Positions 1-11,793 are shown, counted from the stretch's first letter. The stretch: DNA of 64,000 bases from Candidatus Dormiibacterota bacterium (GCA_963757475.1 CAVWRW010000014.1:131631-195630), one strand, 5' to 3'. Numbers and translations: made by a program. The notes: generated by a model not told the origin, from the letters alone.

Positions 1-1019
1 CAGAGCTCGAGCGCCTGGAACGAGCCTGGCGTCCTGCCGCCGACGCGATCGCGTTGTGGTTGCCACTCGGGCGCCGGGCCCAGGAAGCCGAGCAGGAAGT
101 CCGGCGGCTCAAGGACGCGGAAGGTTGGTTGAAGGATGCGCATGACGAGCTTCGTGACGAGCGTTTCCGTCCCATCGCCGGCGCGGTGCAGGAGAACTGG
201 ACACAGCTGCGGCAGGACAGCAACGTCTCGCTCGGCGAACTGCGCTTGCTCGGCGCGCAGACGCAGCGCCGCCTCTCGCTCGATGTCAAGGTCGACGGCG
301 AGGACGGATCCGCACTCGGCGTCATGAGCCAGGGTGAGCTGAACTGCCTTGCCCTGTCACTGTTCCTGCCGCGTGCGTCGATGCCGGAATCGCCGTTTCG
401 GTTCGTTGTCATCGACGACCCGGTGCAGGCGATGGACCCGGCCAAGGTCGCGGGCCTCGCGCAGGTGCTGGCGCGTGCCGCGAAGGAGCGCCAGGTGATC
501 GTTCTCACGCACGACACACGCCTCGCGGATGCGATGAGCGCGCTCGACATCCCCGCCACGGTGATCGACGTGGTGCGCCGCGAGCAGTCCGTCGTGGAGT
601 TGCGCCGGATTTCGGATCCGGTGCAGCGCTACATCGAGGACGCCTTCGCTGTTGCAAACAGCAAGGATCTGCCCCCCGAAGCGCTGCGCGTCGTCCCGGG
701 CTTTTGCAGGCTCGCGCTCGAGGCTGCCTCGTCACTTGCGGCGACCCGGCACCTGCTGCACCAGGGCAAGACGTGGGACGAGGTCGACGCGACGCTCAAG
801 AAACCGACGACGCTGAACATGTGGCTGGCGCTCGCGCTGTTGCACGATGCCGACCGCGCCGGTGACGTCACCGGCTACCTTCTGAAGAACTATCCGTGGG
901 CTGTCGACTCCGTCAAGGAGTGCAACCACGGTACCCACAGCGGGAAGGTGTACGGCGACATGCGCGAGTTCATTCGCGGTGTCGAGCAGTTGACGAAAAA
1001 GATGCTCGAGGCGCATTGA
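1..1019 (+). CDS. SMC/Rad50/RecN-type ABC ATPase, C-terminal half (5' end lies outside the window)
   Basis: Frame is open from nt 3 (ELERLERAW...). A charged coiled-coil-like stretch is followed by the signature-like SQGELNCLALSLFLP, Walker B FRFVVIDDPVQAMD and VIVLTHD. A ~130 aa helical C-terminal extension follows; stop at 1017-1019. Confidence 0.75.
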   Translation, partial: ELERLERAWRPAADAIALWLPLGRRAQEAEQEVRRLKDAEGWLKDAHDELRDERFRPIAGAVQENWTQLRQDSNVSLGELRLLGAQTQRRLSLDVKVDGEDGSALGVMSQGELNCLALSLFLPRASMPESPFRFVVIDDPVQAMDPAKVAGLAQVLARAAKERQVIVLTHDTRLADAMSALDIPATVIDVVRREQSVVELRRISDPVQRYIEDAFAVANSKDLPPEALRVVPGFCRLALEAASSLAATRHLLHQGKTWDEVDATLKKPTTLNMWLALALLHDADRAGDVTGYLLKNYPWAVDSVKECNHGTHSGKVYGDMREFIRGVEQLTKKMLEAH

Positions 1020-1020
1020 C

Positions 1021-1413
1021 GTGGCACCGACGCAGGTGGACGCACACACACTCGTGTCGGCGGCGCGCGACCTGATCCGAGATGACGACGCAACGACCGC
1101 GGGGCTGTGGCCTCGTGCGGCAGCGTTGCTCGCGCGCCAGGGGCTCGAGCTTGCGATGGTGCGTCTCTGGCAGGTCACCGCACCCGGCCTGGAACGAACG
1201 CCGACGCGTTGCCAGTTGTTGTGCGTCGGCGACATGCTGAACGATCGAAAGCTGGGAGGGCGCGCGATGTTGACGTGGAACTCCCTGTCCAACGCCTGTC
1301 ACCATCGCGTGTACGAGTTGCCGCCCACAGCGTCGGAGCTGAACCTTGCGCTCGAGAGCGTGTGGGACCTCGCTGAAGCGGTGGAGCGCCTGCGCGGCAA
1401 GATCAAGGCGTAG
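1021..1413 (+). CDS. hypothetical small helical protein, translationally coupled to the upstream ATPase
   Basis: GTG at 1021 lies 1 nt after the ATPase stop. The 130 aa product has protein-like composition. No family recognised. Confidence 0.55.
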   Translation: MAPTQVDAHTLVSAARDLIRDDDATTAGLWPRAAALLARQGLELAMVRLWQVTAPGLERTPTRCQLLCVGDMLNDRKLGGRAMLTWNSLSNACHHRVYELPPTASELNLALESVWDLAEAVERLRGKIKA

Positions 1414-1511
1414 GCCGCGGGCGCTCGAAATCCGCGACAGCCATCTGTCGCGCCCGCACTCGACACTCATCGCTGGAGATCCGTGGCGGGGTAGCGAAGT
1501 GAGGAAAAGCG

Positions 1512-2784
1512 ATGCTCAGGAAGGTGGAACCCATCACCCTCGGCTGCGACGTTCGCATCGAGGGCGACAACATCGCCGTCACGGGTCTCTCTCTACGCGA
1601 CGCCGATCTGGCGTTGTACGTGGGCGAGCATCCGGCGGTTGACCGCCCGGCGGTCGTGGAGCGTGGGCTCAAGGTCGGCCTGATCGCGCTACGCAATGCC
1701 GGCGTGACGATCAACGTGGATTTCGTCGCGCGTGAATTCGACAGGCTCATGCACCGCACCGATGAGTTCCACGATCGGGCGGCGGTCGCGCTCGACTCCG
1801 CGTTGCGTGAGACCTTCGCGGCGAAGGACGGCACGCTCCCGCGCACCCTCGAGCAGTTCCTCGGCAAGGACGGAACGTTGCGCAGGCTCGTCGACGACCT
1901 CTTCGACGAGGAGCGCCGCGACAGCGCGATCGGCCGCATGCGCACGCTGCTCGCCGGCTACTTCGACGGCGACGGAGCCATCATCAGCCGGATGCTCGAT
2001 CCGCGACTCGCAGGCAGTCCGCTGCACGGGTTCCGCACCGAGATGCGCGAGATGTTGAAGGACGTCAGCGATCGACTGATCCGACTCGAGGCCGCTCGTG
2101 ACGCGCGCGCCGATGAGCGCCAGAAGGGCACCGCAAAGGGGCTCGATTTCGAGGACGCGGTGGAGGCGCGTCTCGCTGCGCTGCTGCGGGGTACGGGCGA
2201 TCTCGTGGAGCCCACCGGGACCGCGGTCGGCAACAGCGTGCGCAGCCGCAAGGGTGACTTCCTCATCACGCTGGATCCGTCGTGGACTCGCGGTGTCCCG
2301 GTGTGCGTCGCCGTCGAGGCGAAGAGCGGACGCGTCGGTCTGTCCAAGCTCTGCCGCGACCTGGATGAGAACTCGGCGTAACCGCGGCGCGGCAATCGCC
2401 GTCGCCGTCTACCGGGCGGGCAATGCGCCGTCCGGATGCGCACCCTTCACGCTGCACGGCGAGCACATCATCTGCGAGTTCGATCCGGACGATCCCGACG
2501 ACACCGCGTTCACGGCGGCCGTGCGGCTCGGGCGCGCGCTCGCGCTGTCCGCCGCGCGTGAGCACGCGGACGTCGTTGACGCGGCGGCGGTGCGACGTGA
2601 TCTCGATGGCATCCGCGCGCAGCTCAATGCGATTGCCGGCATGAAGTCGAAGCTCACGTCGATCTCGACCGCGACCGGCGATGTTCGCAATAGTCTCGAC
2701 GCGCTGCGCCAGGGCGTCCTCGATCGGGTCATGTCGATCGAAGGCAACGTGGCCGATGTGACCGGTCACGCGGAGGTAGCCTGA
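1512..2784 (+). CDS. coiled-coil protein with PD-(D/E)xK nuclease-fold core; reading frame switches +1 near 2365-2381
   Basis: GAGGAA Shine-Dalgarno sits before ATG 1512. Motifs KGLDFEDAVEARL, GDFLITLD and VAVEAKSG give a D...ExK arrangement. The ORF stops at 2381, but a protein-like continuation (NRGAAIAVAVY...) runs in the +1 frame from 2365 to 2784. Confidence 0.6.
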
Positions 2785-3464
2785 TGCACGTCGACGACGT
2801 GCGGCGTGCGGTGACGCAGCTCATGCAGTGTTTCCTCGATAGCGCGCTCGAAACGCAGTTCGTCATCCTCGAGAACGTTGATGTGGGCGACGAGTTCGTG
2901 CAGTTCAAGCTGAACCACCGCATCCTCTACGGCGAAGTGGGTTCCCGTGAGTGGGCTGCGCCCGATGAGCGACGTCCGCTCGATGCAGATGCACAAGCGC
3001 GGCTCGCCGCCCTTGGGTTCACCCACGGCGGTCCGGAGCGCAATTTCATCTGCGACAACCTTGCGCAAAGCGCACCGTACCTGGCGGATCTATACCTCCG
3101 ACTGGCGGTTGCGGCCTACGGAGCAGTTCCTGAACGCTTGTCGGTGAGGAGCAACGTCGACGCGGTCCGCCGGCTCGCGGGCCCGCTGGCACGGATGCCG
3201 GGGTTCAGCTGGCCCGCAGCCGACCCCGGCCGGCACGAATTGCTGCGCACGACACCGGTCACGTCATCATCGTCGGGATTGAAATTCCGAGCCGAGCGTG
3301 CGTTGCGCAGCAACTTCGCCGAGATCGGTTCAACGTCCGAGGAGCTCGAGGCGCTGCGTCATGAGGTCGAGGCGGCGGGGTCATTCGACGCGCTCCCCGA
3401 GTGGGCGCAGGACTGGATCCGCAAGGCCGAGGAAGGTCCTCTCTGGGTAGTGCTCGGGCGCTGA
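2784..3464 (+). CDS. hypothetical protein, N-terminal YbjN/TY-Chap-like region suspected
   Basis: ATG overlaps the upstream stop (TGATG at 2782-2786). The segment FVQFKLNHRILYGEVGS...LAALGFTH resembles YbjN-like chaperone/sensor domains as remembered; no search was done. Confidence 0.5.
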   Translation: MHVDDVRRAVTQLMQCFLDSALETQFVILENVDVGDEFVQFKLNHRILYGEVGSREWAAPDERRPLDADAQARLAALGFTHGGPERNFICDNLAQSAPYLADLYLRLAVAAYGAVPERLSVRSNVDAVRRLAGPLARMPGFSWPAADPGRHELLRTTPVTSSSSGLKFRAERALRSNFAEIGSTSEELEALRHEVEAAGSFDALPEWAQDWIRKAEEGPLWVVLGR

Positions 3465-3475
3465 ACTTCGGGACG

Positions 3476-4942
3476 TCAGACGGTCGCCGCGCGCCGGACG
3501 CCGTCGGCGAACGCGGGTGACGGCCGGTGACCGAGCGCGCTTTCCACGGTCGACAGCGCCTCATCAACTGGCATCCCGTGATGGCGAGCGAGAAAGGTCG
3601 CGGCGACGGTCGGCGTGCGGTTTTCGGCAACGACGCAGTGCACGTACACCTTGTGCCCGCCGGCTGCGCGAGCAGCGATGAAGTCCGCCGTGTCGGCGAG
3701 GACGAAGGCGAGGTTCGGATTGTCCTTGGCACCGCTGTCGATGAGGCCGATGACGCGGTGCTCGGTCCGGTCCGGGACGTCCTTGGTCCCCATGCGACAC
3801 AACGACACGACAACATCCGCGCCGCCGTGCAACGCCGCGTCGAGCCCTGCGACACCACCGAACTGGACGCCCCCGAGCTCTACCGTCGCCGGCCGGGCGG
3901 AGAACTGCTCGAGGTAGTGCGGAATCAGATGGACGCGGCCGGGCCAACCGTTCGGATCGGATTTGCCGCCCCTCGCAGCGCGTCGTGCCATGGCGTCGAG
4001 GTCGGCCGCGCGAAGATCGGGCCGCCCGTACAGGCGCTTGCCGCGCAGCATCGTCGTCCATTCGAGCGGCAGAGCGGTCGCCCCCCAGCGCGCACCGAGG
4101 AGCGCGCCCGCGATGGCACCCACGGTGTCGGTGTCGCCGCCCGATCGGACGGCAGCGCCGATGGCACTGACGAGGTGCTCGCAGGGTGCCGCACCGCTCG
4201 GGATCGGCGTCCGAACGATCGCGGACAGCGCAGTCTGGAATGCGTGAATCACCCAGCCGTTGTTCTCATGGAAATCGACGCAGGGACGCTCGCACGCTTC
4301 ATCGATGAGCTGGGTCCACCAGGAACGCCGCGCTTTCGGGACGTGAACGAGCGCGCTGCGTACGGCTTCGGCGAAGTCCCACGGCTCGTCAGAACCAGGC
4401 GCAGCGTGAATCGTGTGGTCGATCGCCACGGCCCAGATGACGCTCGCGTCCAGACAATCGATGTGCGTGTGCGTGAGCTCAGTGGTGGCGCGAGCGTACG
4501 CAGCAATCTGGTCGGGGTGATTCTGATATGAGAGCGCGGCCGGTCCAATACGCATCAACGCGCCGTTCGGCGCGTTGTCTGGCCGCGTGCGCTGAAACGC
4601 CGCCGCCGACTCGCGCAATGGCGATCCAGAACTGAGCACGGCGCTCGTCTGGGTGCCGACATCCTTGGGTCGGCTGGCGAACCACGCGAGGAAGTCTTCT
4701 TCGACAGCCTCGATCCGACGATTCCCGGCGGCGAGCGGCGACAGGATGGCGAGTGCCATCTGGGTGACATCTGTCCACTCGCCGGGCTTCCAGGCGTAGA
4801 TGCCGCCGCCGGTCATGCGCAGTTCGGCGGTTTCAGCAAGGGGTCCGCGGAACTCATGCGGCGCGCCGAGCGCGTCCCCCGCGGCCGAGGCGAGCACGAC
4901 CCCCGCGGAGCGATCGGCGACGACGGGGTCAGTCGGCGTCAT
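3476..4942 (-). CDS. ADP-ribosylglycohydrolase (ARH/DraG family) fused to a CX5R protein-tyrosine/dual-specificity phosphatase-like domain
   Basis: ARH motifs AAGDALGAPHEF, GEWTDVTQMA and SGGDTDTVGAIAGALLGARWG. The C-terminal ~150 aa carry VYVHCVVAENRTP (HCX5R(T) P-loop). The 488 aa ORF is uninterrupted. Confidence 0.8.
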   Translation of the reverse strand: MTPTDPVVADRSAGVVLASAAGDALGAPHEFRGPLAETAELRMTGGGIYAWKPGEWTDVTQMALAILSPLAAGNRRIEAVEEDFLAWFASRPKDVGTQTSAVLSSGSPLRESAAAFQRTRPDNAPNGALMRIGPAALSYQNHPDQIAAYARATTELTHTHIDCLDASVIWAVAIDHTIHAAPGSDEPWDFAEAVRSALVHVPKARRSWWTQLIDEACERPCVDFHENNGWVIHAFQTALSAIVRTPIPSGAAPCEHLVSAIGAAVRSGGDTDTVGAIAGALLGARWGATALPLEWTTMLRGKRLYGRPDLRAADLDAMARRAARGGKSDPNGWPGRVHLIPHYLEQFSARPATVELGGVQFGGVAGLDAALHGGADVVVSLCRMGTKDVPDRTEHRVIGLIDSGAKDNPNLAFVLADTADFIAARAAGGHKVYVHCVVAENRTPTVAATFLARHHGMPVDEALSTVESALGHRPSPAFADGVRRAATV

Positions 4943-5166
4943 GCGGAGACGCGGACGGCAATCACGTGTGTCACTGAGATACGCCGCAGGAGCGACACAT
5001 GGCTGTCGCTCGAAAACCGCGGGAACTCAGCGGGTTCGGCGGAACTCCGCGTGACGTGAAGGTCGGCAAGGGATCGACGTAGTCGAGGTCCATCTGACGT
5101 CGGTCGGAACTATGCCACTCGTTTGTAGGGTCTGTTGGAAGGTGCTGCCGCCCCACCCAGCCGCCT

Positions 5167-5216
5167 TAGCACTCGCCCCGGCCACCCGCTAGCAGTCCAA
5201 CGAGCCGAGTGCTAAA
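5167..5216 (+). promoter_or_regulatory. CIRCE (HrcA operator) arms upstream of groEL, atypical overlapping tandem arrangement
   Basis: Perfect TTAGCACTC at 5167-5175 and perfect GAGTGCTAA at 5208-5216. Degenerate partner arms ACCCGCTAG (5185-5193) and CTAGCAGTC (5190-5198) are each spaced N9 from a perfect arm. Confidence 0.75.
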
Positions 5217-5260
5217 CTGTCCCCTGGAACCCAAGGCTAGAGGACATACCAGGAGGAACC

Positions 5261-6871
<1,611 letters not shown>

Positions 6872-6934: not shown

Positions 6935-7022
6935 GCCTTCGCTCGTTCTCAGGCAATGGGCGCCTCGTGTGTGCGACGCTCCGGTTGTCCGCTTGAGGAC
7001 GAAAGAGAAGGGGAAGTAGTTC

Positions 7023-8826
7023 GTGCCAGGGTTTCGGATCGGTGGCATCGTTCGCGGTTCGTCGGTTGGTGCGCTGGTTGCCGTCGCTGCGCTTGGTCTG
7101 GCGCAGCCAGCGGGTGTACAAGCGGGGCATCTGCATGCCTCGGCCAACGGGTGTGCGTCGACTCCGGGAATCAAGCCGCTGATTCGTGGTCATCGTGGAC
7201 CGAAGTGTTGCACCGCCGGCGGCAGGGCTTGACGCCAGCTCGATCAACGTCGACTGGAGCAGCTCGAACGACAACGGGCCAGGCCTTGTTGCCGACAACC
7301 CGATTGATCGGGGCGACGCGGCTTCGGGCTGCACGCCGCTTCGCATTCGGGTGCTCGCCGGCATCGCAACACCCGATTGGGTTACGGCCATGACCGGCTC
7401 GGTAGACGTGACGAACCCATACAGCGATCCACGCCGGGGATTGCCGGTGCAGTTCTGGACCCGGCGTACGAGACGCTTTACGACAAGCTGGAATCCGAAC
7501 TGGCGACTGCGCTACGAGGGAATCCCGAATGTCGTGGAGTTCGTGGTCTCCCGTTGCGCGCTCTTCTACCCGGAGCCGTTCATTCTGGGTACGTCGATCG
7601 CGACCAACGATACGAATCTCCTAGCGGCTGGGTTATACCGAGGACGCTGGTCAGGCGTGCGAGCAGGAAGAGATCGACACTGCGAACGCGGACTGGCCGA
7701 CGACGCGGATCGGCGTGTCATTCAACCCGTACCAGACACTGGTGCCTGCGACGAACAGCAAGGGCTACACGACCGGGACCGACGAGGCCTACACCGAGCA
7801 GATGATGACGTACTGCCGCTCAACGCTCGGACAGCGGTGCGTCCTCGAGAACAACTCAATCCGTGACCCGATCTCTGCGGTCGGCGGGACGCAGCCGTAC
7901 TACGGACGAGATGTACGCGGCGATGAGCGCACTCGGCGCTCCAATCGCGTTCCAGACCGCCACCGCCTCAGGGATCGGTGATTTCTGGGGCACGTTGGAG
8001 TGGGCGGCACAACAGCACGCAGCATCAGTGGAACTGCCGCTTGATGGCACGTATCCGACGGCCGGCGGCACGGGTGCGCCCGCGTGGCAGACGCTCCCCG
8101 AGGTCTCGCAGTGGTTCCAGGGCACTCCAGCCTTCAGCGGCGAACCCAGTCAGCGCAACTCAAGGAACCTCAACCGCTGGTGATGCAGTCGGCACGGTCA
8201 CCCTCAACGAGCTCGCCGCATACGACACACAGGTCCCGTACGGCGACGTCGGATCGGTTCCCTTCGATGCTGTTTCCGCGGTGATCACGTGGCCGAACGG
8301 CGCGGTCCAACCTGGGCTCGTCTCGCTCGGCACCGGTACGCCAGCGTCGTCGGTCATCTGCGGCGACGCCGCCACTTGCACTGTCACGGTCTTCAGCGGC
8401 GGCTACACCTTCCCCGAGCTCCCCGTTTCTGGTGCTGGGTCAGTCGCGATCACGCTCGCGAACAACGGCGTCACCTACACGCCGGCTGACGGCGTGGATA
8501 TCGTCGGGACGTTCCCCGTGACGGTGTCGCCGGCGCCGCTCACCCTGAAGACCTTCGCAGTGACTCCGGCCAAGTCCTCCCCAACCGTCAAGCTCGCGGC
8601 AACGTTCTCAGACGCCGACCCGCTCGGCGTCGCCGCGGATTACACGATCAAGGTGATGTGGGGTGACGGCACATCGTCCACCATCGCGGCCACGGCGGCG
8701 AGCAAGGACTTCTCTGTGTCGGCGACACACCACTACAAGCGCGCCGGCAAGGACATCGTGACGATCACGATCACCGACACCGGCGGTGCGACCGTCTCGG
8801 GAAGCCGGACGATCACCGTCCGCTGA
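7023..8826 (+). pseudogene. secreted protein with C-terminal PKD-like domain, broken by at least five frameshifts
   Basis: N-terminal signal-like VGALVAVAALGLAQPAG. Protein-like segments continue through ORFs 7023, 7186, 7377, 7715, 7863 and 7978 in different frames. The last 90 aa (YTIKVMWGDGTSS...HHYKRAGKDIVTITITDTGGA) look PKD-like. Confidence 0.55.
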
Positions 8827-8939
8827 CGCCCGGCGATATGTGACCGGATCAACGATTCGCAACAACCCAGCGACAGACGAATCGACGCGAGGGTGTGGCG
8901 GGTAGATTCGAGCCGCCCACCCACAGTCGAGGTATTTCC

Positions 8940-9485
8940 ATGAGCGACGTCGCGCCCGACAACTCCTTCGGTGAGTCCATTGGCGAGGGTTTCCTGCATG
9001 TCACAGGGATCGGCAGCCGGCTCGTCAAGCGTGAAGCGGCCGAGGAGCAGCTGGACGCCGTCGATGACAAGATGCTCGGCGACCTGGACCGCGAGTTCCA
9101 CGAGCGGGGCGAGGACGCGGTGCCCGGCCTCGACCTCAGCGCCGTGACCAAGGTCGACCCGGAATTCAGCGCCGACGCCTTCCTGCTGATCGCGCGGGAC
9201 ACCTTCCGGTTCATGCAGGACGCCAAGACCCAGGGCGCTCCTTCGCTCGATGCGGACATCTCGTCCGCTGAGGTGACGGCTGCGACCGTTGTCAACGGAC
9301 TGGAGCATGCCGTCGTCCGTTTCGGGATCATCGGCGACGCTGCGCCCATCACCCAGGACTGGACCTTCGAACGCGATCCGAGTGGCGATACGACCGTTGA
9401 CGACGAGCAGCACGAGGTCGCCGATGGCGGCTGGACGGTTGCGCATCGCGGCTGGCGCCTGACGGGGATTGCAACCGCCGCGTAA
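8940..9485 (+). CDS. hypothetical protein (possible Tim44-like domain)
   Basis: ATG at 8940 within ORF 8895-9485. The EFSADAFLLIARDTFRFMQDA segment resembles Tim44-like domains as remembered. Confidence 0.45.
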   Translation: MSDVAPDNSFGESIGEGFLHVTGIGSRLVKREAAEEQLDAVDDKMLGDLDREFHERGEDAVPGLDLSAVTKVDPEFSADAFLLIARDTFRFMQDAKTQGAPSLDADISSAEVTAATVVNGLEHAVVRFGIIGDAAPITQDWTFERDPSGDTTVDDEQHEVADGGWTVAHRGWRLTGIATAA

Positions 9486-9501
9486 GGCAGCTTCGGGCAT
9501 C

Positions 9502-10701
9502 ATGGGCGGCTTGTTCATGATGGGCAACGTCCGCCTTCCCGGTCCGTTCTCGCGGATCCCTCTCGCCTGGATCATCGCCGTGATCCTGTTCGTCTTCGCC
9601 GGGATTGTTCTGGCCACCCACGGCAAGACCGAGGAGGCTGTGATCCTTGCGGTCATCGGCGTGCTGCTCGTCATTCGCGGGGCCTTCGTGTTCAACGCCA
9701 GACGTGACGACGGTCCTGAAGTTCAGATCACAGCAACACCACTCCCGACCGCTGCGCCCGTCCCACCGGCCAGGCCGGAGGTGCCGACGACCGTCATCGA
9801 GGCCAGGGAACTCTCCAAGCGATACGACTCGATCGTCGCGGTCGACAGCGTCAGCTTCTCAGTCCAGCGCGGCGAGATCTTCGGGCTGCTCGGGCCCAAC
9901 GGTGCCGGCAAGTCCACGACGCTCGAGATGCTCGAGGGCTTGCGCGACATCGACTCGGGGACGGCGCTCGTTCTCGGCACCGACATCCGGCACGATGCGA
10001 CCGCTGTCAAACGGCGTATCGGCGTGCAGTTGCAGGCGACTGCGCTGCCGAGCTTCACCACCGTCGCGGAATCGATCGACCTGTTTCGCGCCTTCTACGA
10101 TCACACACGTGCCACGGCCGAGCTCCTCGAGGAATTCGACCTCGTCGCGCAGGCAAACCAGATCACCACAAAGCTGAGTGGCGGCCAGCAACAACGGTTG
10201 AGCATCGCGCTCGCGATGGTCAACGACCCCGACGTCGTCTTCCTCGACGAGCCGACGACCGGTCTCGATCCGCAGGCTCGGATCTCGCTCTGGGATTTCA
10301 TCGAGCGCTTTCGAGCGCGCGGCAAGACGGTGATGCTCACGACGCACTACATGGAAGAAGCGGAACGCCTCTGCGATCGCGTCGCGGTGATGGACCTGGG
10401 CCACGTGGTTGCGCTGGACACACCCGACGGCCTTGTCGCGCAGTACGGGCCTGGCACCACGATCACCTTCTCCAGCAACAGCGCCGATGTGAACGGGATG
10501 CGCGCGCTCAAGGGCGTCGACTTTGCCGACGTCGATGGCGTCTTCGTTCGCATCGGCACCCATGCACCGGAGTCCGTCCTCGCGCAGTTGCTCCGTCCTG
10601 ACGACGGTGGCGGCGCCGCCGACGTGACCAACCTCAGGGTCGAGCGCGGCACGCTCGAAGACGTGTTCCTCGCGATCACCGGGCGGGCGTTGCGCGAATG
10701 A
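9502..10701 (+). CDS. ABC transporter ATP-binding protein with N-terminal two-TM extension
   Basis: Walker A GPNGAGKST, signature LSGGQQQRL, Walker B VVFLDEPTTGLD. Start at ATG 9502 chosen over the TTG at 9469. Confidence 0.85.
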   Translation: MGGLFMMGNVRLPGPFSRIPLAWIIAVILFVFAGIVLATHGKTEEAVILAVIGVLLVIRGAFVFNARRDDGPEVQITATPLPTAAPVPPARPEVPTTVIEARELSKRYDSIVAVDSVSFSVQRGEIFGLLGPNGAGKSTTLEMLEGLRDIDSGTALVLGTDIRHDATAVKRRIGVQLQATALPSFTTVAESIDLFRAFYDHTRATAELLEEFDLVAQANQITTKLSGGQQQRLSIALAMVNDPDVVFLDEPTTGLDPQARISLWDFIERFRARGKTVMLTTHYMEEAERLCDRVAVMDLGHVVALDTPDGLVAQYGPGTTITFSSNSADVNGMRALKGVDFADVDGVFVRIGTHAPESVLAQLLRPDDGGGAADVTNLRVERGTLEDVFLAITGRALRE

Positions 10702-11793
10702 GAGGGTTTCTCGCGCTCGTCACGACCACCGTGCGAAGCAGCTTCCGGAACCGCGCCGCGCTCATCTTCACGTTGCTCATCCCCATCTTCCTCATGGTGC
10801 TGCTCGGCAACGTGCTCGGTGGCGGCAATGCATCGGTCAATATCGGCGTCGTCGACGAGGCCGGCACAACGCTCAGCCATCAGTACGTTGCGACCCTCAA
10901 GCACGAGAAGAACCTGGTGGTGGAAGAGGGGAGTGCATCGCACGAGGCGGACCGCCTGCAACATGACGACGTCGTTGCGGTTGTCATCATCCATCCGGAT
11001 TTCGCGACGCCGTGTCCACCCGATCAGAAGTGCGCGGGGCTGGACACCGGTATCACCCTTGATCTCGACAGCAACGATCCGTCGGACTCTGCAGATCGCG
11101 TCACAGGTGATCAGTGCCATAACGCAGGACTTCTCGGTCGCCGCGCACATCGGTGGTACCCCGGGAATCACCTTGAACACCGCCGAGATCGGGACGCAGA
11201 ATATCACGGCGATCGACTACTTCCTGCCGTCGATGATGACCTACGTCGCCGTGCTTGCCGGCCTCACATATGTGTCGATCACCATCGTCGATCAGCGTGA
11301 GCGAAAGGTCCTGCGCCGTTATCGGGCAACGCCGCTCCACCCGCTGCAGGTGCTGGGTGCGGCAATGACCGGAGGAGCGGTCACCGTCGCGCTCGAGGTT
11401 GTCGTCCTCGCCATCGTTGGCGTCGCGCTCTTCGGCGCGCGCGCGCATGGAAGCTGGTTGCTCGCCGTCGTCGCGCTGGTCGTCGGGATTGCGAGCTTCG
11501 TCAGCATAGGTTTTCTGCTCACGTCCTTCGTGCGGACGAGCGACGCTGCGCGCGGTATCTCATCGCTGATCGGATTTCCGATGCTCTTCCTGAGCGGCAT
11601 CTTCTTCCCGGTCGACGCCTTGCCGCAGTGGATCCAGGACGTTGTGCACGTCCTGCCCGTCTACTACGTCTCGGATGCGCTGCACCAGATCCTCAACTCG
11701 GGCGGCGGCCTGACACTGCTCGATGTCGCCGTGCCGCTCGCGTGGGCGGCTGGTTGCTTCGCGCTTGCGGCGTGGCGGTTCCGCTGGGAGTAG
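10698..11793 (+). CDS. ABC-2 type permease, +1 frameshift near 11091
   Basis: ATGA overlap with the ATPase stop. The N-terminal TM part lies in frame of ORF 10698. The remainder (TLQIASQVISAITQDF...VLPVYYVSDAL) lies in frame of ORF 10819. Confidence 0.75.

What the first reader, a model, noticed from the sequence alone, without database searches (positions are those of the whole stretch)
1..3464. Edge-truncated operon: SMC-like ABC ATPase, small helical protein, coiled-coil PD-(D/E)xK protein and YbjN-like protein - candidate uncharacterised DNA-surveillance or defence module
Seen in sequence:
- Four same-strand ORFs with coupling-type junctions: stop 1017-1019 then GTG 1021, and TGATG at 2782-2786.
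- The first ORF has a coiled-coil plus ABC signature/Walker B/H-loop motifs and an extra ~130 aa tail.
- The third ORF combines a ~230 aa helical N-terminus with GDFLITLD...VAVEAKSG.

Established knowledge: SMC/ABC-type ATPases paired with nucleases form the core of Lamassu, Wadjet, PARIS, Septu, Gabija and OLD-type immunity, and also of SbcCD/RecN repair.

Inference: the gene order, sizes and accessory proteins do not match any named system I can recognise. The module sits beside an ADP-ribosyl-removing enzyme. The ATPase N-terminus and anything further upstream are outside the window.
Basis: partly seen in the sequence, partly recalled or inferred. Interest (0 to 1): 0.7.

Follow-up and report, generated by a model that had tools for sequence, protein, structure and literature searches.

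The report
Two defence-type gene modules, side by side
The four genes are not one new system but two separable defence-type modules sitting side by side: an uncharacterised Rad50-like ATPase with an obligate small partner that resembles the tRNA-cutting enzyme RloC, and a nuclease plus chaperone that belong with the neighbouring ADP-ribose-removing enzyme in a system already predicted by comparative genomics.

Summary
The ORFs, junctions and motifs are real. However, the third ORF is broken in this window by one extra A at 2370; intact relatives are 423 aa. The window comes from a Dormibacteria MAG. A 98.5%-identical contig shows the full ATPase: 812 aa, with Walker A, a CPVCG hook and a 135-aa helical tail.

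Comparison of about 190 related loci splits the cluster into two modules.
- **Module A, ATPase plus orf2.** This is an obligate pair. It lacks orf3 and orf4 in 89 other loci. It occurs on Streptomyces plasmids, on an integrase island, inside type I R-M loci and next to helicase-nucleases. Both the ATPase tail and orf2 carry a conserved Arg-X3-Glu...His signature like the RloC/PrrC nuclease triad. No HMM-level membership was found.
- **Module B, orf3 plus orf4.** orf3 has a restriction-endonuclease fold, with E/D/ExK invariant in 166-167 of 167 sequences. orf4 is a Pfam TY-Chap3 protein. Together with the convergent ADP-ribosylglycohydrolase::phosphatase they match the 'ARG-centric' anti-ADP-ribosylation systems predicted by Iyer et al. 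2022. Two independent loci place orf3 inside such operons.

orf3 also occurs alone, next to Ku-LigD in 30 of 58 non-Dormibacteria Chloroflexota loci (mostly Limnocylindrales).

Verdict: a defence-type reading is partly supported, and a single novel four-gene system is not. Module A is a credible uncharacterised RloC-like variant.

The parts
1..1019 (+). C-terminal 338 aa of an 812-aa Rad50/SbcC-like ABC ATPase (module A). It carries the ABC signature (324-341), Walker B (396-422) and H-loop (501-515). A 135-aa all-helical tail starts at about 615, with C-R-x3-E at 705-725 and N-x-G-x-H at 921-938. The N-terminal head and the CPVCG hook lie outside the window.
   Evidence: The AF2 model of the tail has pLDDT 93. 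Its top Foldseek hits are HEPN toxins, but they are not significant.
1021..1413 (+). orf2: a 130-aa helical protein and the obligate partner of the ATPase (module A). Family hallmark residues are W30-P31, R39-x3-E43 (1132-1149) and C93-H94 (1294-1305).
   Evidence: The start lies 1 nt after the ATPase stop. An orf2-family gene follows the ATPase in nearly every locus with room for one. The family has 950 representative clusters and no Pfam, PADLOC or PHROG match. E43 and H94 are invariant and R39 is conserved at >=90%. hhalign against the ATPase tail gives P 0.005.
1512..2784 (+). orf3: a restriction-endonuclease-fold protein with a helical N-domain, a PD-(D/E)xK core and a C-terminal helical region (module B). 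It is interrupted here by a +1 frameshift: an extra A at 2370, with the first frame stopping at 2379-2381. Catalytic residues are E214 (2142-2156), D249 (2250-2276) and E269-x-K271 (2307-2330).
2784..3464 (+). orf4: a TY-Chap3 (YbjN/T3SS-chaperone-like) protein (module B). The domain spans aa 22-107 (2847-3104). The start overlaps the orf3 stop (TGATG).
   Evidence: Pfam PF22552 scores 30.2 bits against a cut-off of 27. The gene is present or absent among close relatives, and the ARG gene is present only where orf4 is. The family is described in PMC9503650.
3476..4942 (-). ADP-ribosylglycohydrolase (ARG, aa 14-292) fused to a Cys-phosphatase (DSPc-like, HCVVAENR at 3617-3640). It is convergent with orf4 and is the core enzyme of module B.
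   Evidence: Pfam ADP_ribosyl_GH scores 1e-49 and DSPc 2e-7. PHROG ADP-ribosylglycohydrolase scores 7e-36.

Best explanation
Window 1-4942 is the right-hand part of a conflict-type gene island fixed between an HD_4 gene and groEL in a Dormibacteria lineage. It joins two separable modules.

**Module A (1-1413, plus about 1.4 kb upstream of the window)**
- It consists of a Rad50-like ABC ATPase and a small partner, orf2.
- The ATPase has a CPxCG hook in the middle of a ~480-aa insert and a C-terminal helical domain.
- orf2 is probably a free-standing paralogue of that C-terminal domain. Both carry a conserved Arg-X3-Glu...His signature.
- I infer that it works like RloC/PrrC. The ATPase and hook sense DNA ends, or failure of DNA-level defence. 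They then license a HEPN-type RNase formed by the tail and orf2, which shuts down translation.

**Module B (1512-4942, probably with the upstream HD_4)**
- It is an ARG-centric system as predicted by Iyer et al. 2022.
- The glycohydrolase::phosphatase removes and processes ADP-ribose placed on host molecules by invader ADP-ribosyltransferases.
- The TY-Chap3 protein binds the modified targets.
- The REase-fold orf3 is a DNA-cutting second-line effector.

**Shown and inferred**
- Shown: the gene content, the pairings, the folds and the conserved residues.
- Inferred: every biochemical activity and the triggers.
For: **Separability**
- ATPase+orf2 are adjacent in all 20 distinct Dormibacteria-type loci and in L023.
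- They are adjacent in 8 of 9 loci from other lineages; the exception is IS-disrupted.
- In the 80 metagenome loci they are adjacent in all but 2 of those with at least 400 nt of room downstream. None of these carries orf3 or orf4.
- orf3 occurs without the ATPase in L022 and L024-L081.
- Toxin-antitoxin cassettes sit on the opposite strand between orf2 and orf3 in L004, L009, L011, L015 and L020.

**Module A**
- SMC_N, AAA_23 and AAA_21 domains are present.
- CPxC is found in 29 of 32 long homologues.
- In the tail, C31 and R32 are conserved in 103/105 sequences, E36 in 99/105 and H108 in 93/105.
- In orf2, E43 and H94 are invariant and R39 is conserved at >=90% across 69 diverse members.
- The RloC triad is Arg-X3-Glu-X36-52-His, with Ser often preceding His (PMC2610378).
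- hhalign of orf2 against the tail gives P 0.005 over 109 columns, with R and E superposed.
- The tail model has pLDDT 93, and its first eight Foldseek PDB hits are HEPN toxins.
- Its neighbours elsewhere include type I HsdR/HsdM, a PLD-helicase with DUF3427, an RNase_H_2-SF1 helicase, STAND-like ATPases, an integrase, IS elements and plasmids.

**Module B**
- TY-Chap3 and the ARG+DSPc fusion are present.
- The published description of ARG, R-P phosphatase, TY-Chap, HD phosphatase, REase and helicase neighbourhoods fits the locus.
- L022 reads ARPP-1, orf3, ARG, then HD_4, TY-Chap3 and an RNase_H_2 helicase.
- L095 reads WYL regulator, DSPc, orf3, TY-Chap3, HD_4 and RNase_H_2.
- ARG is present only where orf4 is present.
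- orf3 has a REase fold with invariant E, D, ExK and NR residues.
Against: **Module A**
- No HMM links the tail or orf2 to PrrC/RloC or to any HEPN family.
- The AAA_13 and PrrC matches cover only the ATPase core.
- The Foldseek HEPN hits have E 0.3-1 and TM 0.3-0.47.
- The Glu-to-His spacing in the tail is 71 residues, against 36-52 in RloC.
- The canonical HEPN Rx4-6H motif is absent.
- The hhalign probability is only 7%.

**Module B**
- No Nudix or WYL regulator was seen at this locus.
- orf3 matches no Pfam REase family, so it may not be the REase that the 2022 paper describes.
- orf3 is better conserved than orf4 or ARG. It persists where they are absent, and in the non-Dormibacteria Chloroflexota (mostly Limnocylindrales) it keeps company with Ku-LigD rather than ARG.

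**The split itself**
- The modules stay adjacent in three different gene orders (typical Dormibacteria order, L018, L023).
- ARG-system parts recur near ATPase-orf2 elsewhere (L083, L115, L117, L120, L135, L149). So the two modules may cooperate.
Confidence: 0.55

Rival explanations
1. This is one integrated multi-gene DNA-surveillance or defence system. The ATPase senses, orf2 adapts, orf3 cuts DNA, orf4 acts as chaperone, and the ARG enzyme is accessory.
For: - Adjacency is kept in all 20 distinct Dormibacteria-type loci and in two other gene orders: L018 (orf3, ATPase, orf2) and L023.
- The ATPase/orf2 and orf3/orf4 junctions are of the coupling type.
- ARG, HD_4, ARPP-1 or the RNase_H_2 helicase lie near ATPase-orf2 in L083, L115, L117, L120, L135 and L149.
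- In several lineages orf2 is followed by a helicase or nuclease gene, a possible counterpart of orf3.
Against: - 89 loci carry the pair without orf3 or orf4.
- About 60 loci carry orf3 without the pair.
- orf4 and ARG are variable among genomes more than 85% identical in orf3.
- Opposite-strand toxin-antitoxin insertions lie between orf2 and orf3.
- L163 has HD_4, up182, ATPase and orf2, but no orf3 within 3.4 kb.
Confidence: 0.12
2. This is a housekeeping double-strand-break repair locus. An SbcC/Rad50-like hook ATPase works with a structure- or end-specific nuclease (orf3) that cooperates with NHEJ.
For: - The chromosomal position is fixed (HD_4 ... groEL) across a clade with 59-100% identity.
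- The ATPase is under purifying selection: 51 synonymous against 5 non-synonymous differences.
- It has a zinc-hook-like CPxC and an SMC/Rad50-like head.
- Ku lies within 8 kb of orf3 in 30 of 58 non-Dormibacteria Chloroflexota loci (mostly Limnocylindrales). It lies directly downstream, followed by LigD, in about 13 of them. Several distinct arrangements are seen.
- No relatives were found in viral contigs.
Against: - No SbcD/Mre11 partner is present.
- The pair sits on Streptomyces plasmids, on an integrase island and within type I R-M loci. It is IS-disrupted or fragmented in several genomes.
- orf3 relatives lie in ARG operons and next to SRA-HNH, NERD, PLD-helicase and PIN genes.
- No Ku or LigD is present in the 64-kb window.
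Confidence: 0.2
3. At least in this strain the locus is decaying. orf3 is a pseudogene, so module B lacks its effector and the cluster has no current joint function.
For: - A single-base insertion at 2370 truncates orf3 after the ExK motif. It removes the NR motif and 135 C-terminal residues.
- Partial orf4 remnants occur in L012, L014 and L017.
- Fragmented ATPase genes occur in several other genomes.
Against: - It is the only indel in 6.9 kb against the relative.
- It lies in a short A run, as expected for a long-read consensus error.
- The downstream frame is 137/137 aa identical to the intact relative.
Confidence: 0.1

Closest known systems
RloC / PrrC anticodon nucleases (ABC ATPase fused to a C-terminal HEPN-type RNase; RloC has a Rad50-like coiled-coil and zinc-hook insert)
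   Same: - The order of parts is the same in a protein of about 800 aa: Walker A head, long helical insert with a central CxxC, ABC signature, Walker B and H-loop, then a ~135-aa helical C-domain.
- The best-conserved residues of that domain form Arg-X3-Glu...[S/T/A]-His.
- Some loci are linked to type I R-M.
- The start codons are GTG or weak.

   Different: - There is no HMM-level similarity outside the ATPase core.
- The Glu-His spacing is 71 in the tail and 50 in orf2, against 36-52 in RloC.
- An obligate second gene (orf2) repeats the signature, whereas RloC acts alone.
- The range is Actinomycetota and Chloroflexota.
ARG-centric anti-ADP-ribosylation conflict systems (Iyer, Burroughs, Anantharaman, Aravind 2022, Viruses 14:1977, section 3.8)
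   Same: - The ARG enzyme has no linked ADP-ribosyltransferase.
- ARG is fused to a rhodanese-phosphatase-superfamily Cys-phosphatase.
- A TY-Chap3 gene is present.
- An HD_4 phosphatase gene lies nearby (in L001).
- A REase-fold gene is tightly coupled.
- Content varies between close relatives.

   Different: - There is no Nudix or WYL regulator at this locus.
- orf3 matches no Pfam REase model. It carries large conserved helical N- and C-terminal regions that the paper does not describe.
- The paper does not mention an ABC/SMC ATPase partner or Ku.
- The system is a prediction and has not been tested.
SbcCD / Rad50-Mre11
   Same: An SMC/Rad50-type head (PHROG SbcC-like) and a CxxC hook in a long helical insert.
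   Different: - There is no SbcD/Mre11 phosphoesterase gene.
- The protein is shorter (812 aa).
- It has an extra C-terminal domain and the orf2 partner.
- Its contexts are mobile or defence-island-like.
Lamassu (LmuB SMC ATPase with LmuA effector and LmuC)
   Same: Partial LmuB HMM matches (PDLC03859, 4e-23, covering residues 208-653) and the general logic of an SMC-like sensor plus an effector.
   Different: There are no LmuA or LmuC matches. orf2, orf3 and orf4 hit no PADLOC model. The mad3, HEC-01A and PDC-S06 matches are equally good, so the similarity is generic.
Bacterial NHEJ operons (Ku-LigD)
   Same: orf3 homologues lie directly upstream of Ku-LigD on the same strand in about 13 non-Dormibacteria Chloroflexota species genomes (mostly Limnocylindrales), and within 8 kb of Ku in 30 of 58.
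   Different: There is no Ku or LigD in this window or in the Dormibacteria loci. No nuclease of this family is a known NHEJ component (own knowledge).

Membership tests
RloC/PrrC anticodon nuclease | N-terminal ABC ATPase motifs (Walker A, signature, Walker B/D-loop, H-loop) | tested here: met
   GRNGSGKSS in L001. MSQGEL, FRFVVIDDP and VLTHD in the window. SMC_N, AAA_21 and AAA_23 domains.
RloC/PrrC anticodon nuclease | Coiled-coil insert with a central CxxC zinc hook (RloC only) | tested here: inconclusive
   CPVCG lies at about residue 361, within the ~480-aa insert between Walker A and the signature motif. CPxC is present in 29 of 32 homologues of at least 470 aa. Coiled-coil geometry and zinc binding were not tested.
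RloC/PrrC anticodon nuclease | C-terminal ACNase domain with the catalytic triad Arg-X3-Glu-X36-52-His | tested here: inconclusive
   R-x3-E and [S/T/A]-H are the most conserved tail residues, but the spacing is 71. orf2 has R39-x3-E43-x50-H94. HEPN toxins top the fold search, but with E 0.3-1.
RloC/PrrC anticodon nuclease | Profile-level sequence similarity over the whole protein (Pfam AAA_13, PADLOC PrrC) | tested here: not met
   AAA_13 scores 32.4 bits against a cut-off of 36 and covers model positions 492-573 only. PrrC scores E 0.0014 over the core only. The tail and orf2 have no hits.
RloC/PrrC anticodon nuclease | tRNA anticodon-loop cleavage | not testable with these tools
   This requires a biochemical assay.
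ARG-centric anti-ADPr system (Iyer et al. 2022) | ARG domain gene without a genomically coupled ART or sirtuin | tested here: met
   ADP_ribosyl_GH scores 1e-49. No ART or SIR2 family appears among the Pfam-annotated genes of the 21-kb L001 locus.
ARG-centric anti-ADPr system (Iyer et al. 2022) | Rhodanese-phosphatase-superfamily phosphatase fused or adjacent (about 55% of systems) | tested here: met
   A DSPc-like C-terminal domain with HCVVAENR is fused to the ARG domain. The DSPc score of 31.4 bits is just under the Pfam cut-off of 33.5.
ARG-centric anti-ADPr system (Iyer et al. 2022) | Peptide-binding chaperone gene (vWA, SseB, or TY-Chap1/2/3) | tested here: met
   orf4 matches TY-Chap3 (PF22552) at 30.2 bits, above the cut-off of 27.
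ARG-centric anti-ADPr system (Iyer et al. 2022) | Nudix- or WYL-HTH negative regulator (about 42% of systems) | tested here: not met
   None appears among the genes of L001. A WYL/WCX regulator is present in the related L095 locus.
ARG-centric anti-ADPr system (Iyer et al. 2022) | Variable, tightly coupled REase-fold effector, sometimes with helicases | tested here: met
   orf3 has a REase fold and motifs and overlaps the orf4 start. orf3 lies inside ARG-type operons in L022 and L095. Identity with the paper's own REase family could not be checked because the supplement is not held.
SbcCD / Rad50-Mre11 | Adjacent SbcD/Mre11 calcineurin-like nuclease partner | tested here: not met
   No such gene is found in L001 or in the other annotated loci.
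Lamassu | LmuB SMC together with an LmuA effector (and LmuC) | tested here: not met
   Only partial LmuB hits were found. orf2, orf3 and orf4 have no PADLOC hits.
PD-(D/E)xK (restriction endonuclease-like) superfamily, for orf3 | An alpha-beta-beta-beta-alpha-beta core with conserved E...D...ExK | tested here: met
   The AF2 core (residues 210-350) has pLDDT around 80-87 with that topology. Foldseek hits are RPB5-N, EndoMS/NucS, Cap4, BamHI and SfsA, with best E 0.011. E214 is conserved in 166/167 sequences and D249, E269 and K271 in 167/167. Haloarchaeal homologues hit Mrr_cat weakly.

The most novel reading that the evidence does not exclude
ATPase+orf2 is a new, widespread two-component relative of RloC, with about 950 orf2 clusters at 50% identity. 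In it, a Rad50-like hook ATPase controls a composite HEPN-type RNase built from its own tail and a free paralogous subunit. In Dormibacteria it is wired to an ARG-centric ADP-ribosylation-reversal system. The REase of that system (orf3) is the same family that accompanies Ku-LigD in other Chloroflexota. This would link sensing of DNA breaks, removal of ADP-ribose and end joining.
Probability: 0.3. Interest if true: 0.7.

Novelty: new variant of a known kind. Interest (0 to 1): 0.5.

Why it matters
- **Module A.** It would add a large, unnamed gene pair from Actinomycetota and Chloroflexota to the small class of ABC-ATPase-governed RNases (PrrC, RloC). The split, paralogous nuclease subunit would give a handle on how such enzymes are kept silent.
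- **Module B.** It is a natural example of the ARG-centric systems, which so far exist only as a prediction. The orf3 family is a clean candidate for their DNA-level effector.
- **orf3 and Ku-LigD.** The recurrent linkage in other Chloroflexota is undescribed as far as I could find. It suggests either an accessory NHEJ nuclease or a link between ADP-ribosylation and break repair in bacteria.
- **Caveat.** None of this has been tested experimentally. The organisms are uncultured, so heterologous assays would be needed.

Tried and rejected
**Searches that found nothing**
- Pfam, NCBIfam, PADLOC and PHROGs gave nothing for orf2 or orf3. For the ATPase tail, separate Pfam and PADLOC scans also gave nothing.
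- A PDB sequence search with orf3 and orf4 found nothing meaningful.
- No intrinsic terminator or promoter was found in 1-5300. The orf2-orf3 hairpin is no better than shuffled sequence, z 0.06.
- orf3 and orf2 have no relatives in IMG/VR viral contigs.

**Comparisons that failed or were weak**
- The first hhalign of orf2 against the ATPase tail, with a shallow alignment, was not significant (E 0.14). With a diverse orf2 profile it improved to 0.005.
- The 424-aa gene after orf2 in L087 is not an orf3 homologue. It has a weak UvrD_C hit.
- The AAA protein next to the Halobaculum orf3 homologue is an SF1 helicase, not a relative of the ATPase.

**Assignments rejected**
- MADS (best PADLOC hit mad3): the match covers only the ATPase core, and no methyltransferase is present.
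- SbcCD and Lamassu: rejected for lack of partner genes.

Full report
**1. What is in the sequence**

The ORFs and junctions are as reported.
- An edge-cut ORF ends at TGA 1017-1019.
- A GTG ORF runs 1021-1413.
- An ATG ORF starts at 1512 behind a GAGGAAAA ribosome-binding site.
- A TGATG junction lies at 2782-2786 and leads into an ORF at 2784-3464.

The ABC motifs and the GDFLITLD...VAVEAKSG motif are present.

One thing was missed. The frame from 1512 stops at 2379-2381, and the frame that reaches the TGATG junction is a different one.

The window is 98.5% identical over 6,935 bases to a Dormibacteria MAG contig (L001 = CAVWEG010000006). The only indel in that alignment is an extra A at 2370. 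Intact homologues are 423-424 aa. Only two substitutions, both synonymous, lie downstream of the shift. I therefore cannot say whether it is a recent pseudogene or a consensus error.

**2. What lies upstream**

L001 supplies the missing part.
- The ATPase is 812 aa. It has Walker A GRNGSGKSS near residue 96 and CPVCG near residue 361, in the middle of a ~480-aa insert. The signature, Walker B and H-loop follow, and then a 135-aa tail.
- A 182-aa membrane protein overlaps the ATPase start. It is specific to Dormibacteria.
- An HD_4 gene lies divergently upstream.
- Downstream of orf4 come a convergent ADP-ribosylglycohydrolase::Cys-phosphatase fusion (Pfam 1e-49; HCVVAENR motif) and groEL.

**3. 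Family assignments**

| Gene | Result |
|---|---|
| ATPase | SMC_N, AAA_23 and AAA_21 domains. PADLOC hits are generic (mad3 2e-24, LmuB 4e-23, HEC-01A, PDC-S06, AriA, GajA). PDB hits are SMC and Rad50 heads. |
| orf2 | No match in any library. |
| orf3 | No family match. |
| orf4 | Passes the Pfam threshold for TY-Chap3. |

For orf3, an AF2 model (mean pLDDT 68, core around 80-87) has an alpha-beta-beta-beta-alpha-beta core. Weak Foldseek hits go to RPB5-N, EndoMS/NucS, Cap4, BamHI and SfsA. E214 is conserved in 166 of 167 sequences. D249, E269, K271, N290 and R291 are conserved in all 167. The set includes haloarchaeal plasmid homologues at 28% identity.

**4. Are the four genes one unit? 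No.**

- **Dormibacteria-type loci.** A scan of species genomes gave at least 559 orf3 loci, of which the best 80 were analysed. All 20 distinct Dormibacteria-type loci share the order HD_4 | up182 | ATPase | orf2 | orf3 | (orf4) | (ARG) | groEL. orf4 and ARG are variable, and ARG is present only where orf4 is. The orf2-orf3 spacer ranges from 0.1 to 1.7 kb.
- **Spacer content.** The longer spacers hold opposite-strand toxin-antitoxin cassettes (HTH plus nucleotidyltransferase, VapBC and others) or a dehydrogenase gene.
- **orf3 without the ATPase.** In the 58 non-Dormibacteria Chloroflexota loci (L024-L081, mostly Limnocylindrales), orf3 stands without ATPase, orf2, orf4 or ARG.
- **The pair without orf3.** In 9 annotated loci from other lineages and 80 metagenome loci, the ATPase is followed at once by an orf2-family gene. 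The exceptions are 2 loci among those with at least 400 nt of room, and one IS-disrupted locus. None of these has orf3 or orf4.

**5. Module A (ATPase + orf2)**

The orf2 family has 950 representative clusters at 50% identity, nearly all of 110-150 aa, and no Pfam hit. Across 69 diverse members E43 and H94 are invariant and R39 is conserved at >=90%, giving R-x3-E-x50-H.

The most conserved residues in the ATPase tail are C31-R32-x3-E36 and G106-x-H108. The residue before the His is most often Ala (59/105), then Ser (15), Val (13) and Thr (10).

RloC and PrrC are defined by an ABC ATPase followed by an ACNase domain. That domain has the triad Arg-X3-Glu-X36-52-His, 'Ser often precedes His', and RloC adds a coiled-coil CxxC hook insert (PMC2610378). 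These domains are HEPN members (PMC3710099).

Three further results bear on this.
- A diverse orf2 profile aligns to the tail over 109 columns with R and E superposed. P is 0.005 for this single planned comparison, but the HH-suite probability is only 7%.
- The tail model is confident (pLDDT 93).
- Its first eight PDB matches are HEPN toxins, but at E 0.3-1.

The architecture and signature therefore resemble RloC. Membership is not shown: the HMM-level test fails.

The pair's neighbours elsewhere are as follows.

| Context | Loci |
|---|---|
| Streptomyces plasmids, beside DUF6119, NB-ARC/TPR and a 1,185-aa UvrD-like helicase | L090, L091 |
| Integrase island | L086 |
| IS disruptions | L085, L088 |
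| Type I HsdR/HsdM | L085, L132, L138, L146, L165 |
| PLD-ResIII-DUF3427 helicase-nucleases | 3 loci |
| RNase_H_2-SF1 helicases | 7 loci: L117, L119, L120, L132, L087 and two further members of the five-locus ORF cluster |
| STAND-like cyclase-ATPase-TPR genes directly downstream | 8 loci |
| NERD-kinase genes | 6 loci |

This is defence-island company.

**6. Module B (orf3, orf4, ARG::phosphatase)**

TY-Chap3 was defined in the description of 'ARG-centric' systems. These are predicted to reverse invader-imposed ADP-ribosylation. Their parts are:
- an ARG enzyme with no linked ADP-ribosyltransferase;
- often a fused rhodanese-phosphatase-superfamily phosphatase;
- a chaperone (vWA, SseB or TY-Chap1-3);
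- sometimes an HD phosphatase of the alarmone type;
- Nudix or WYL regulators;
- variable REases, helicases and ARPP (PMC9503650).

The window locus has the ARG::phosphatase fusion, TY-Chap3, a coupled REase-fold gene and, in L001, HD_4.

Two independent loci place orf3 inside such operons.
- L022 reads ARPP-1, orf3 and ARG on one strand, with HD_4 and TY-Chap3 convergent and an RNase_H_2-SF1 helicase next.
- L095 reads WYL/WCX, DSPc, orf3, two unknown genes, TY-Chap3/YbjN, HD_4 and RNase_H_2.

Other mid-distance orf3 homologues sit beside PIN toxin-antitoxin pairs and SRA-HNH (L094), PLD-ResIII-DUF3427 and a Mu transposase (L096), and NERD and HNH genes (L097).

**7. An unexpected link to NHEJ**

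In the non-Dormibacteria Chloroflexota loci (mostly Limnocylindrales), Ku lies within 8 kb of orf3 in 30 of 58 loci.
- In about 13 loci it lies 5-95 nt downstream on the same strand, followed by LigD.
- In others it is separated from orf3 by a subtilase-like gene.
- In others it lies upstream on the other strand.

For a gene present once or twice per genome, chance adjacency would be around 1% (my estimate). These genomes are related, however, so the loci are not independent. The 2022 paper does not mention Ku, LigD or an ABC/SMC partner. The window itself has no Ku or LigD.

**8. Mechanism (inferred)**

- **Module A.** The hook ATPase binds DNA ends, or senses failure of DNA-level defence, as shown for RloC (PMC3458546 and PMC3874168). 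ATP-driven rearrangement then frees a tail/orf2 RNase that stops translation.
- **Module B.** ARG removes ADP-ribose from modified host targets and the phosphatase processes the product. TY-Chap3 holds the modified proteins. orf3 cleaves DNA as a back-up effector.
- **Possible cooperation.** ARG-system parts recur near ATPase-orf2 in other lineages (L083, L115, L117, L120, L135, L149). The two modules also stay adjacent in three gene orders in the Dormibacteria clade. They may therefore cooperate. I give the single integrated system 0.12.

**9. Limits**

- There is no context-free statistical test of linkage.
- The denominator of Dormibacteria genomes is unknown.
- The orf3 model has only moderate confidence.
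- The HEPN assignment rests on motif pattern, architecture and non-significant fold hits.
- All functions are predictions.

**10. Verdict**

The idea of a defence-type module is partly supported. The claim of one novel four-gene system is not. Part of the cluster is an instance of an already predicted system. The ATPase+orf2 pair is the new element: an RloC-like variant with an obligate small paralogous subunit.

Noticed in passing
Window 1512-2784; related loci L025-L081 (for example L026 7773-12386): orf3 homologues in the non-Dormibacteria Chloroflexota (mostly Limnocylindrales) lie directly upstream of Ku and LigD in about 13 species genomes, and within 8 kb of Ku in 30 of 58. Several different arrangements are seen. 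I found no description of this linkage.
   Followed up: partly
Window 3-1016 versus L001 8492-9505: The ATPase 3' part carries 57 substitutions against the 98.5%-identical relative (51 synonymous, 5 non-synonymous). The adjacent orf2 has 0 in 390 nt, and orf3, orf4, ARG and groEL have about 1% or less. This suggests a recombination tract ending at the ATPase/orf2 boundary.
   Followed up: no
L004 7231-7955, L009 6989-7865, L011 6928-7797, L015 6414-7903, L020 6294-7907: Toxin-antitoxin-like pairs (HTH plus nucleotidyltransferase-like, VapBC/PIN, and a DUF4258-like pair) are inserted on the opposite strand between orf2 and orf3 in close relatives. The spacer behaves as an insertion hot spot.
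   Followed up: partly
Window 6936-9789: The region after groEL has no counterpart in the near-identical relative L001, where about 1 kb stands in its place. It encodes ORFs at 7186-7866 and 7978-8826. The latter has a weak PKD-domain hit. An ABC-2 transporter pair follows at 9469-11793.
   Followed up: partly
L001 6529-7077 (just upstream of the window): A 182-aa predicted membrane protein overlaps the ATPase start codon. It is conserved (70-84% identity) in the Dormibacteria loci and absent from ATPase-orf2 loci of other lineages. Its function is unknown.
   Followed up: partly
Window 1512-2130 (orf3 residues 1-205): The N-terminal helical region of orf3 carries nearly invariant motifs (LPRTLE.FLG, LFDE..RDSAIGR, YFDGD, LDP...SPLH.FR). 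They are partly shared with haloarchaeal homologues and match no known domain. This may be a sensor or partner-binding domain.
   Followed up: no
L083, L085, L086, L087, L088, L089: In many genomes the ATPase gene is called as two ORFs, or is interrupted by IS elements or deletions. These may be long-read indel errors, or frequent inactivation of a costly gene.
   Followed up: no
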